DNA from: the human T2T-CHM13v2.0 reference genome, Homo sapiens
Reading direction: 5' to 3' (one strand)
Assembly: GCF_009914755.1 (NCBI RefSeq)
Contig: NC_060929.1
DNA length: 64,000 nucleotides
Shown: positions 36,179-40,892 of the stretch, in pieces
Layout: every line of letters starts with the position of its first letter
Position numbering within the stretch: the stretch's first letter is position 1
Program-made: the position numbers and the translations under genes
The notes under the pieces: generated by a model
Told to the model about the DNA's origin: nothing
The model's input: the letters and a program-made list of their open reading frames with translations, nothing else
Databases searched by the model: none

Positions 36179-36581
36179 AATAATGTGTTAATATTGACTT
36201 TTAATACAAGATCAATAGGCTTGGATAAAAAGCTACTGATCCTTTTACGGAATCCTTTGGTTTCACAGATGAGAAAAACTGTAATCTGTCAGTCTTCTGA
36301 TTCTCACTAGCATGTTCTTTTATTCTACCCTCCCTCTGCTTAGCACCTTCAACATACTCTAGGTTAACTGTTTATTTGATGTTGTAAGTCAGTAACTGCC
36401 TATGTCTTGCCCAACCAAGATGATTGTGATGGCCATGTGAAAGAGTTGCACAGATATGGAAGAGTTGCACAGCTCTCCTGCTTGTGTCTAACTACTGACG
36501 ACAAAACTCTCTAAAATAAACAAACTGCTTACTCAAAAGCTATGAGTGCTAGAATTACATATTTGTTATGTATAATAGTAA

Positions 36582-37513
36582 TGTGTCTAGAATTTATTCC
36601 TTCCGGTGGGTTCTTCGTCTTGCTAACTTCAAGAATGAAGCTTCGGAACCTCGAGGTCAGTGTCACAGCTCTTAAAGATGGTGTGTCCAGAGTTTATTCC
36701 TTCAGGTGTTCAGATGTGTCCAGAGTTTCTTCCCTCTGGTGCGTTTGTGGTCTTGCTGACTTCAGGAGTGAAGCTGCAGACCTTCTCAGTGAGTGTTACA
36801 GCTCTTAAAAGTGGTGCACCCAAAGTTGTTTGTTCCTCCCAGTGGGTTCGTGGTCTCGCTAACTTCAGGAATGAAGCTGCAGATCCTTGTGGTGAGTGTT
36901 ACAGCTCATAAAGGTAATGCGGCCCCAAAGGGTGAGCAGCAGCAAGATTTATTGTGAAGAGTGAAAGAACAAAGCTTCCACAGCCTGGAAGGGGACCCGA
37001 GTGGGTTGACACTGCTGGCTGGGGTGGCCAGCTTTTATTCCCTTATTTGTCCCTGCCTACCTCCTGCTAATTAGTCCATTTTACAGAGCACTGATTGGTC
37101 TATTTTGCAGAGTGCTGACTGGTCCATTTTACAGAACGCTGATTGGTCCATTTTGCAGAGTGCTGATTGGTCCATTTTACAGAGTGCTGTTTGGTGCATT
37201 TACAATCCTTTAGCTGGACCCAGAGCGCTGATTGGTGTGTTTTTACAGAGTGCTGACTGGTGCACTTACAATCCTTTAGCTAGACACAGAATGCTGATTG
37301 GTGCATTTTTAGAGTGCTGATTGGTGCATTTATAATCATTTAGCTAGACACAGAGTGCTGATTGGTGTGTTTTCACAGAGTGCTGATTGGTGCATTTACA
37401 ATCCTTTAGCTAGACACAGAGCACTGATTGGTGTGTTTACAATCCTCTAGCTAGACAGAAAAGTTCTCCAAGACCCCACTCGACCCAGGAAGTCCAGCTG
37501 GCTTCACCTCTCA
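36582..37513 (-). mobile_element. LTR12-family (ERV9) solo LTR
   Basis: TG...CA termini; 4-bp TSD gtaa (36578-36581, 37514-37517); tandem gctgattgg repeats; acagctcttaaag U5 repeats. Confidence 0.93.
37085..37455 (-). promoter_or_regulatory. LTR12 U3 CCAAT (NF-Y) repeat array
   Basis: About nine intact gattgg (CCAATC) motifs in ~23-41-bp repeats; TATA-like aataaaag on the minus strand near 37032-37039. Confidence 0.7.
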
Positions 37514-37649
37514 GTAACACGTTTTAGAAAAAGAAAAAAATTTTAGGTAGCCTCAAATACCACTCCACTGGGTTAGACGGACTTTTTCTATTTTATGTCT
37601 GCTCATCTTAGACATTTAAAATTTAAAATTTAACAGTGTTTTCCTATGA

Positions 37650-39739
37650 CATGAAAATCCTGTTCAAAACCAAATTTTACCCTTGTGTTAGTTTGTTAAT
37701 ATTAACCCCAATTTGTTTAAATGAAACATTATAGATCATACCGTTTTATCTTAACCAATTTGACCATGAAGTGAAATCTTTACAAACCTTTTATAACCCT
37801 TTTATTAAAGGGCAGATTAGTGTCTTAAGATCTCCTTGCTATGCTTTTATTTCAATTCTCAATTTATGAAAAGACCATATAGATACTATGGGAGAAGATG
37901 GTGTAGTGCTTCTACCATGCGCTTCATTGCAAGACAATCCAAAGCCAATTGGCTTATTTTGTAATCAGCTCATCCCTGCCTTTGAGCAGGATTTTCATGT
38001 CATAGTATAGGCTAATGAAAGGTTTTTGCCTTTTGAGTCATCATTTTGGCAAAGTAATTTATGGCAATCTGGAAATTGTCTTTCCTGATGCTTGGCTTTT
38101 TGGATGGTTCAGAGGGCCCCTGAAACATTCAGAAAAGAGGTAAACATGATTATTTGACATGTTTAGTCACATAAGATTGCCAAAATGATGTCTAAGTTAT
38201 ATTTTGGTGAATAATACTAATATATGTTCAAAAATTGAATGGGATTTCTAAAATTCTAATGTCTAAGTATATGCTATCAATCATAATTAAGGGTAAAGTT
38301 ATTGTAAGCCACAGAGATAAACTTCTTTGTCAGTCATGTTTTTAACTGTAACTATCCTGGAAATGTTGCCATTTGCAGACAATTATTGTCTTGCTATGTT
38401 ACTTCTCAAAGGATGGTTTATCATCAAGCTATATTAAGGACTTTAACAGGTGTTTTCAAATGCAGGTTTTTAATAGCTTTGAAGATTGTAACATTGGAAT
38501 AGAAAAAGAACGCAGGGGACTCCTAAAAAACTGACATGTTCACAAATACCAAGCAAAACAAAAGTGAACTAAGTGGACTGCACTCAGAAAGTTTAAGCAA
38601 CCTTTTTAACTTTTGCTTGGAATATTGCCAATCCTTGTTTTGTTTTTCAGAGTGAAGGAAACTTATTTTAAGCTATTTATGGCCTTTAATAATTAAGTAA
38701 GGTATACTACTGTGAACAAAATTTGGAGCATGTTCATTTTTCTCCACCTGGCTCCTCTAGAATTTGGAGAGTATCTGAGTCAAGCTTGACATGCAGAGCC
38801 AATAAAGCCCCTTTATTGGGAGAACTGGCCTCATACATTGTCCACACAGTCCCTGCACAGGGTTCCTAACCTGTAACCAGTAAAGAATGTCACTTTCTAA
38901 CAGGTCTGGAAGTTCCGAGTTTATCTTGGGACCTCGAGAGGAGAGGATCACCCAACTCACAGAAGCAATCAAACTCCAAATGGCGCTGCAGACTGAACCA
39001 CACATGCACATGCCATTCTTCCAAGGACCCTTAAGTTGACCCTAGGAGGATCCCTAGCTGCGGTTCCTCATTCAATGCCCCTTTTCAGCAGGAAGTAGTC
39101 AGAAAGAGTCATTGCCCAATACCCCCTAACAGCAGTTAGTGTGACATCTCCACAGTGGAGAATGTTGAAGGAGTTATTAAGAAATTATTTTAGGCAGACA
39201 GAGAGGAAAAGGGGCCGTTGGGAAGTTTTCATTTTTAGAGCTGCTGCAGAAGACTTTCTTATAAAGCCCTGGCATGCAAATGCAGGGCATTAGAAACTGG
39301 ATCCACATAGTGATTCCCGTTGTCTTCTTGCCCTTGCCCCACATGTTCCTGGCAACATGGTTGCCCCCACATAGCCCCTTGTGTGTGGAACATCATGGCG
39401 CCCTGCATTTGCATATTAAAATGCTAGGGTGAGAGGGCCAGCTTTTCCTGCTATGTGAATGACATGCCTAGTAAAACCAATCCCCTAAGTCCTGTGTAAA
39501 TCAGACACTGCCTCCTCCAGCCTTTGTATATATACCTGGCTGGTATCCATGGCAGGTGGGGTTCCCTCTCTCCACTTTGGAGAACCCCCTCCCTTTGTCT
39601 CTGTACAGGGGAGCTTCTTCCTTCTCCTTTTCTTCTTGCCCCTTCTAGAATATTAAACTCTCCTGTCCTAAAAACCAAAAAAAAATAAAAAAAAAAAACA
39701 AAAACGAAAGAAAACAAAACAAACAAAAAACCACCAAAA
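37650..39739 (+). mobile_element. L1-retrotransposed ERV1 (MER4-group) transcript: inverted internal segment (37650-~37978), sense internal segment, U3-R LTR, poly(A)
   Basis: TSD aacagtgttttcct(a/g)tga (37632-37649, 39740-39757); LTR from 39163 ends ~20 nt after attaaa in an A-rich tail; env-end EAIKLQM and a PPT-like tract precede the LTR. Confidence 0.85.
39163..39676 (+). mobile_element. MER4-group LTR (MER50/MER84-like), U3-R only
   Basis: tgttgaaggagttattaagaaattattttaggcag...ccctgcatttgcatattaaaa...tattaaactc; no U5 before poly(A). Confidence 0.8.
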
Positions 39740-40892
39740 AACAGTGTTTTCCTGTGATAACTTCATTATATTTAATAATAACACTCTAACACTGTTTCAC
39801 ACTTGAAAGCTCTATATAATGCATTTTGGACTTAAGAGACTCTTAAAACTAAAAATATATTGCATGAGTAAATAATAAAATACAAAACAAATCTACTAAC
39901 ATACACTTCTCTGTTTGATGTCATACCCATTAACAACTAATAACTTTCCAATGAAGAAACGCACTTTTTAGTGGTATATGACAAAGACAGCCCATTTTAA
40001 AATGCCATTCAATATGTACTCAGTACCAAATCAAAAATGAAGGACTTCAATTTCACGGCTGTCCATTTCCCATATTCTATTATGTTCTTGATTATTTTAA
40101 AAAGAACGGTTTGTTTTTCTCAGTCTAAAAATACTACATTTACTTTGAACTCTTACTGTTTTAGAAAAACAGACAAAAGAGATAACTGGGCTTTGTTTAT
40201 AAGAGTACTTTCCAGGTAAATGCACTACCCACCAATTTGTAAAAGGTAATTATCTTCTAAGCTGTTTCTCTCACACTTTTTAGTATACAAAGCAACTTTT
40301 CTGTGTAGCATCAGGAAAACATGAGACACATGCATGAAAAACAGTAGATCCCCACATGGTAGGATGCACATAAATAGAATCAGACAAAGGAAAATGAGGG
40401 AAGGGGCACATTTTGTCCTGAGTACCCACTGCTTCCTGCTTTGTAAGCTTCTTGTCTAGGTCAGTTGAAGCTCCAGTCATCACAGACTTTTCCTTGGAGC
40501 ATCCTGACCAAGACAATTATCACAGGCAGTGCCTCCTTCTCCTAGTAAGCCTGCCATTTGCTCACTCCTTCCCTCCTTCACCCATCCGCTATACTCAGGT
40601 CTTCTTTATGGCTCTTCTCTCAGCTAACTTCCAGAATAAATTACACTGGGACAGAGTTTTTCATAAGAAACCATTTGAGACTGACGAGAAAGGCCTTTTA
40701 TAAATATCACTTGATTGAGTGCCTTGGAGAGGCAATGCTTTAATGTTGGAATGTTAAGCTTCATCAGGAGGAAGTAAGAGAGATGACTTTTAAAACACAG
40801 GGTTTCCTGATTTCTCTGCTCAAATGATATAGGTAACTATCACATCAAGCTGATCAATTCCAATGATATGAATCTCCCAGGCAGTTTGCATT

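What the first reader, a model, noticed from the sequence alone, without database searches (positions are those of the whole stretch)
38761..38990. Two probable splice junctions inside the ERV retrocopy, preserving a multiply spliced ERV isoform
Seen: abrupt joins at 38776/38777 (gagtatct|gagtcaagcttgac) and 38962/38963 (cccaactcacag|aagcaatcaaactccaaatg; EAIKLQM is an env cytoplasmic-tail relic). From my recollection of MER4-group internal consensus, the first left side continues into GTGAGT and its right side follows tttcctttaag, and the second left side continues into GTATTT. That would make the missing segments GT-AG bounded. Inference: the template was a spliced RNA, so this copy records the exon structure of an ancient ERV transcript. 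The consensus context is recalled, not verified.
Basis: inference. Interest (0 to 1): 0.72.

Follow-up and report, generated by a model that had tools for sequence, protein, structure and literature searches.

The report
Spliced retrovirus RNA fossilised by LINE-1
This 2.1-kb human insertion is a poly(A)-tailed DNA copy of an ancient retrovirus-like element. It lacks two stretches bounded exactly by GT and AG splice signals, so it was most likely copied from a spliced RNA by LINE-1; sister copies elsewhere keep other splice forms, a pattern already described for other endogenous retroviruses but not found in print for this family.

Summary
Confirmed. Both joins are real. In unspliced relatives the missing pieces are a ~139-nt GT..AG segment at 38776/7 (GT in 12 of 13 copies, AG in 13 of 13) and a ~1-kb GT..AG segment at 38962/3 (GT 9 of 11, AG 9 of 11). 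About 0.6% of random deletions can be placed GT..AG. The insertion (37646-39739) has L1 hallmarks: A tail, 14-nt target duplication, 5' inversion. Nine other loci carry exact joins in other combinations: 3 donors, 5 acceptors, 7 junction types, one a +3 tandem acceptor. Copies sharing junction 2 are rejected as one clade (AU p=0.003). Of 40 family elements inspected, 24 end in an A tail and 5 run into U5, so L1 was a major route for this MER61-int-like group, although reviews call HERV-W the sole such group. Spliced ERV retrocopies are known (HERV-W, HML-2 rec), so this is a new member of a known kind. Against a clean picture: one copy has a near-junction-1 deletion that is not GT..AG, junction-1 copies are not rejected as a clade, and confinement of splicing to A-tailed copies is not significant (p=0.21).

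The parts
37632..37645 (+). 5' target-site duplication (14 nt), preceded by TT as at L1 endonuclease sites; its last bases overlap the inverted segment
37646..37978 (-). inverted 5' segment of ERV internal sequence, with about 30 nt duplicated at the breakpoint (twin-priming type, inferred)
   Evidence: (I24)
37977..38776 (+). first retained block; holds an unused acceptor at 38650/38651 (A0) that L029 and L031 join to the leader donor D0
38776..38777 (+). junction 1 (D1>A1): ~139-nt GT..AG intron missing; same join in L029
38777..38962 (+). internal exon, 186 nt; holds an alternative acceptor at 38903/38904 (A1b) used by L031 and L069
38962..38963 (+). junction 2 (D2>A2): ~1-kb GT..AG intron missing, which holds the env TM remnant; same join in L027 and L028, and at +3 in L031
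38887..39039 (+). 50-codon open frame across junction 2 (25 codons of the internal exon in phase with the env tail); function not shown
38963..39162 (+). env cytoplasmic-tail relic and purine tract before the LTR
39163..39677 (+). U3-R of the 3' LTR, ending at the family's poly(A) site (ATTAAA at 39652-39657), no U5; a 28-nt deletion at 39273/39274 that is not GT..AG
39678..39739 (+). decayed poly(A) tail
39740..39753 (+). 3' target-site duplication

Best explanation
The insertion is a poly(A)-tailed, target-duplication-flanked copy of a MER61-int-like endogenous retrovirus that lacks two exact GT..AG segments, most likely because the host spliceosome removed them from the RNA before LINE-1 likely reverse-transcribed it into this site. 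Shown: the two boundaries, the A tail at the family's poly(A) site, the 14-nt duplication, the 5' inversion, and other loci with other exact joins. Inferred: (1) proviruses of this family, in which no RT or integrase was detected, were transcribed in the germ line or early embryo; (2) their RNA was spliced inefficiently and variably, mostly at opportunistic sites (about 0.75) rather than by a conserved viral programme; (3) L1 ORF2p took these RNAs in trans and twin priming inverted the 5' end; (4) age roughly 25-45 million years, from 89% mean identity to 11 unspliced copies and a recalled neutral rate. The copy has no 5' LTR and is probably inert.
For: Exact GT..AG bounds at both joins against 0.6% by chance each. 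L1 hallmarks. Ten loci with 14 joins of 7 types: window D1>A1 and D2>A2; L029 D0>A0 and D1>A1 but not junction 2; L027 and L028 D2>A2; L031 D0>A0, D1>A1b, D2>A2+3; L034, L054, L056, L068 D0>A2; L069 D0>A1b. All ten show a retrocopy-type end (R start and/or A tail). Junction-2 copies as one clade rejected, p-AU 0.0034 (0.014 with L031); all 8 spliced rows in the tree rejected, 0.006. PURPL's 161-nt exon 2 (length from PMC12934665) fits an AG..GTGAGT pair in the homologous stretch, which suggests this sequence is spliced in cells today at neighbouring sites.
Against: L032 has a deletion that starts at or within 2 nt of donor 1 but keeps the last bases of the intron, is not GT..AG, and lies in a copy without an A tail; unexplained. 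Junction 2 has a 2-nt and junction 1 a 1-nt microhomology. The junction-1 pair (p-AU 0.165) and the three D0>A2 rows (0.154) are not rejected as clades; the tree is star-like, its bootstrap had not settled, and 4 rows are under half filled. Splicing at A2 in 7 of 23 A-tailed against 0 of 5 U5-ending copies gives p=0.21, and most spliced copies were found by junction-biased searches. Deletions that are not splices also occur: L033 leader with a 7-nt microhomology, L042, and the window's 28-nt LTR gap.
Confidence: 0.88

Rival explanations
1. The splices happened once, earlier: a spliced RNA was first integrated by retroviral reverse transcriptase as a shortened provirus, and the window is a later L1 copy of that master's transcript.
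For: A retrovirally reintegrated spliced HML-2 RNA is proposed in PMC3590776 (passages). The window and L029 are not rejected as a clade. Only 5 U5-ending copies were seen, and 20 of 58 anchored loci were not examined.
Against: No U3-starting or U5-ending copy seen has either join. L029 has junction 1 without 2 and L027 has junction 2 with acceptor 1 unspliced, so several masters would be needed. Junction-2 clade rejected.
Confidence: 0.07
2. Ordinary DNA deletions in a source provirus, inherited by descendants, happen to fall on GT and AG.
For: The family has deletions that are not splices (L032, L033, L042, window 39273/4).
Against: About 3e-5 for two of two; reuse of the same donor with different acceptors and the same acceptor with different donors; a +3 tandem-acceptor variant.
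Confidence: 0.03
3. L1 reverse transcriptase jumped between short repeats on an unspliced RNA.
For: L033 is an A-tailed copy with a leader deletion at a 7-nt microhomology near D0 and A0.
Against: The window's joins have only 1-2 nt of homology and recur to the base at other loci.
Confidence: 0.02

Closest known systems
[quoted passage not shown]
   Same: L1-made R-U5..U3-R copies with A tail and 5-15-nt duplication; a minority lack a GT..AG segment that proviruses keep; about two thirds of internal copies are retrocopies.
   Different: Different family, with no RT or integrase hit in Pfam; 7 junction types from 3 donors and 5 acceptors here against one pre-gag intron in the passages read. Those papers state that L1 mobilisation is limited to HERV-W.
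HERV-K(HML-2) rec retrocopies ERVK-30 and ERVK-31 (PMC3590776, PMC4351823; passages read)
   Same: Doubly spliced ERV RNA copied by L1, last acceptor in the 3' part of env, A tail and duplication.
   Different: Those follow a known coding mRNA, and two loci are described; here no protein product is known and ten spliced loci were found in a partial survey.
Retrotransposed HERV-H elements (Goodchild 1995; seen only as cited in PMC3590776)
   Same: ERV RNA returned to the genome; a spliced form is recalled from the paper's title.
   Different: Paper not read; different family.
PURPL/LINC01021, a MER61C LTR plus MER61-int lncRNA (PMC5732690, PMC12934665)
   Same: Internal region about 75% identical across the window's junction region; spliced, with intron retention.
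   Different: A living proviral gene with a different LTR (no BLAST hit; local score 61 against a shuffle maximum of 47). Its fitted exon 2 uses an acceptor inside the window family's intron 1 and a donor inside its internal exon; the position of donor 1 is not intact in PURPL.

Membership tests
L1-made ERV processed pseudogene | 3' LTR cut to U3-R, followed by a poly(A) tail | tested here: met
   homology ends at 39677, A-rich tail to 39739
L1-made ERV processed pseudogene | target-site duplication of 5-15 nt at a TT/AAAA-like site | tested here: met
   14 nt, TT then AACA
L1-made ERV processed pseudogene | 5' end at R-U5, or truncated or inverted | tested here: met
   truncated, with a 333-nt inversion
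Major-spliceosome intron loss | missing segments begin GT and end AG behind a pyrimidine tract, to the base | tested here: met
Major-spliceosome intron loss | the same joins seen in RNA | not testable with these tools
   no RNA data; PURPL's fitted exon uses neighbouring, different sites
MER61-int internal sequence | similarity to sequence annotated as MER61 internal | tested here: inconclusive
   73-77% identical to the PURPL 5' region, which PMC5732690 describes as MER61 LTR and internal; no repeat library here, and related MER4-group internals may score as well
MER61C LTR | alignable to the MER61C LTR of PURPL with its p53 site | tested here: not met
   no BLAST hit, weak patchy local alignment; another MER61/LTR9-type subfamily is my recall only
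Rec/Np9-like accessory mRNA | splice joins an upstream frame to a frame in the 3' part of env | tested here: inconclusive
   in phase with the env-tail frame in the window, L027 and L031; one in three by chance, and it is the env frame itself
Rec/Np9-like accessory mRNA | protein made, or purifying selection on the frame | not tested
   many copies have stops in the tail frame, as decay would give; no selection test run
Autonomous class I provirus | recognisable gag, pro, pol and env | tested here: not met
   three long copies, three plus frames each: only TLV_coat C-terminus plus weak GP41 and Betaherpes_U91 hits; frameshifts lower sensitivity

The most novel reading that the evidence does not exclude
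This MER61-type group is a second, undescribed HERV-W-like case: most of its surviving internal copies were made by LINE-1, not by retroviral integration. They form a fossil library of at least seven splice junctions of a germ-line RNA from tens of millions of years ago, with a SINE-like class of ~120-nt R-only, A-tailed copies beside them. A further step (about 0.07) is that junction 2 made a small env-tail accessory peptide.
Probability: 0.5. Interest if true: 0.65.

Novelty: new member of a known kind. Interest (0 to 1): 0.5.

Why it matters
It corrects the repeated statement that LINE-1 mobilisation of ERV RNA is special to HERV-W, and gives a second group in which to ask what makes an ERV RNA an L1 substrate. 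The retrocopies record splice-site choice in ancient germ-line RNA and can be set against the sites that PURPL uses today in the homologous sequence. In practice, such promoterless copies inflate LTR-based enhancer counts and can mimic spliced reads in RNA-seq or RT-PCR. The window copy itself probably does nothing.

Tried and rejected
The third hit of the junction-1 pattern (C12:46.23 Mb, L026/L030) is a chance match with no ERV around it. The 28-nt LTR gap at 39273/4 is not a splice. L033's leader deletion first looked like D0>A0 but sits on a 7-nt microhomology. A first tree (19 of 41 rows kept; 22 dropped for lacking the exon start or a nearby R end) was star-like, with 5 changes for 5 spliced rows. 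The second used 31 of 41 rows; L032, L037, L040, L047, L052, L055, L061, L062, L063 and L065 were left out. I first read the 67 A-tailed R ends as internal-bearing retrocopies; 5 of 5 sampled away from known loci were LTR-only, so that reading was dropped. Identity of the LTR with MER61C was tested and not met. One literature search was swamped by 'hepsin'. Pavlicek 2002 is not held. Earlier scan findings were not available.

Full report
Anatomy. The element runs from 37646 to 39739 between two copies of a 14-nt duplication at 37632-37645 and 39740-39753. Against related loci its first 333 nt are inverted, with about 30 nt duplicated at the breakpoint; three forward blocks follow (37977-38776, 38777-38962, 38963 on), then U3-R and an A-rich tail where full LTRs go on into U5. 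This matches the description of L1-made ERV processed pseudogenes in PMC5537654 (passages). Reading the inversion as twin priming is from established L1 biology, recalled.

The two joins. A genome search with 38650-39160 gave 55 matches from 40 scored of 1445 candidates, most breaking at 38777 and 38962. In 13 unspliced copies the first gap is 129-156 nt (139 in 9), begins GT in 12 and ends AG in 13, behind a pyrimidine run. In 11 distinct elements mapped on both sides the second gap is 971-1377 nt, begins GT in 9 and ends AG in 9. Only one of the 2 or 3 equivalent placements of each is GT..AG, and random deletions can be so placed in 0.52-0.64% of trials. The second intron holds the only clear Pfam match in three long copies, the C-terminus of TLV_coat; the acceptor lies at its end, so the splice leaves just the env tail.

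Other spliced copies. Junction patterns found junction 2 at two more loci (3 matches) and junction 1 at one more (3 matches, one by chance). Comparison with a two-LTR copy (L041) showed a leader donor D0 and further acceptors. In all, ten loci hold 14 joins of 7 types: D0>A0 (L029, L031), D0>A1b (L069), D0>A2 (L034, L054, L056, L068), D1>A1 (window, L029), D1>A1b (L031), D2>A2 (window, L027, L028) and D2>A2+3 (L031). Duplications of 13-17 nt are clear for the window, L027, L028 and L029, weak for L031 and not found for L034; for the other four only one end was seen. Most were found by junction-biased routes. Among 20 loci taken in list order from an anchor just before the LTR, 2 of the 17 with a visible acceptor context were spliced there.

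Independence. In a tree of 31 of 41 rows over columns present in the window, spliced rows are scattered (8 changes for 8 rows). Junction-2 copies (p-AU 0.0034; 0.014 with L031) and all spliced rows (0.006) are rejected as clades; the junction-1 pair (0.165) and the D0>A2 trio (0.154) are not. The tree is star-like and its support rough.

Family-level picture. The anchor gave 58 sites; 38 were examined and 20 were not. Of 40 elements inspected in all, 21 show an A tail at the poly(A) site directly and 3 more by a pattern hit just beyond the fetched stretch; 5 run into U5, 2 are ambiguous and 9 are not visible. In the 20 taken in list order the figures are 9, 3, 1 and 7. Genome-wide, 67 sites read R into an A run and 237 read R into U5, controls 0; the A pattern caught 11 of the 21 directly seen tails, so 67 is a lower bound. 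Five sampled sites away from known loci were LTR-only: four begin at or near the R start and one about 60 nt upstream; a duplication of 8-14 nt was called by script in three. Proviruses decay to solo LTRs, so the share of retrocopies among internal copies overstates their share of all insertions (inference).

Against. L032 has a deletion at or within 2 nt of donor 1 that is not GT..AG, in a copy without an A tail; I cannot explain it. L033, L042 and the window's 28-nt LTR gap show that other deletions occur. Splicing at A2 in 7 of 23 A-tailed and 0 of 5 U5-ending copies is not significant (p=0.21).

Function. Junction 2 puts 25 codons from an ATG at 38887 in phase with the env tail, giving 50 codons in the window. 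The 25-codon part has no stop in 18 of 19 copies read, one of them frameshifted and several without the ATG; the tail frame has stops in many copies. Phase is a one-in-three chance, so this is weak. The homologous stretch in PURPL (about 75% identity) holds a 161-nt AG..GTGAGT pair that fits the published exon 2 length and would give a 194-nt product with the published primers; one other 161-nt AG..GT pair exists, with weaker signals. Its sites differ from the window family's, which favours opportunistic splicing.

Family name and age. The internal region resembles sequence that PMC5732690 calls MER61 internal; the LTR is not PURPL's MER61C. A MER61/LTR9-type LTR and a tRNA-Gly-like primer site are my recall, from no call. 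Mean identity to 11 unspliced copies is 89.4%; 25-45 million years is an estimate from a recalled rate.

Literature. Passages read: PMC5753468, PMC5537654, PMC6995185, PMC3590776, PMC5016936, PMC5732690 (supplement search 53, files 2 and 4 whole in 56, 57), PMC4351823, PMC4724089, PMC12934665 (supplement passages 62), PMC12129084, PMC2853125, PMC11359688, PMC5775608. Spliced ERV retrocopies are described for HERV-W and HML-2. PMC5537654 and PMC5775608 state that L1 mobilisation is specific to HERV-W, while PMC3590776 already names HERV-H and HML-2 cases. Ten searches (listings only beyond the papers named) showed no report of spliced or L1-made copies in the MER61 group. The library lacks most subscription papers, Pavlicek 2002 was not held, Goodchild 1995 was not read, and repeat-database notes or unseen supplements may hold this.

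Verdict. Observation confirmed, interpretation supported, new member of a known kind; the family-level result is the part worth following up. Interest 0.5.

Noticed in passing
L070-L074 (C1:238.47 Mb, C3:24.04 Mb, C7:47.19 Mb, C15:25.27 Mb, C18:65.06 Mb): LTR-only elements with an A tail; four of five are just the ~120-nt R region starting at or near the family's transcript start. Either short RNAs ended in the 5' LTR and copied like a SINE, or R-R recombination products of full retrocopies.
   Followed up: partly
L067 3546-3706 (C5:27,581,195-27,581,355): Candidate PURPL exon 2 (161 nt) lies in the stretch homologous to the window's junction region but uses different splice sites.
   Followed up: partly
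L032 (C9:35.207 Mb), oriented position about 4407: Deletion at or within 2 nt of donor 1 that keeps the last bases of the intron; different LTR, no A tail. Unexplained.
   Followed up: partly
L033 (C5:141.984 Mb), leader: A-tailed copy lacking about 4 kb between two copies of a 7-nt word close to D0 and A0; looks like a template jump or DNA deletion, not a splice.
   Followed up: partly
window 36581-37514, minus strand: A solitary LTR with 24-, 41- and 66-nt tandem repeats, about 120 nt upstream of the retrocopy; LTR12 by recall. Its minus orientation is inferred from the recalled terminus.
   Followed up: no
window 39274-39420: ATGCAAAT and ATTTGCAT octamer words and CATG-centred p53-like half sites in U3; motif names recalled, binding untested.
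   Followed up: no
L028 (C1:244.697 Mb): Another 5'-inverted retrocopy, with junction 2 inside the inverted piece.
   Followed up: yes
C19 and others: Eight of 22 matches to the D0 donor context are on chromosome 19, several with a shared variant, probably a related ERV family with the same leader donor.
   Followed up: no
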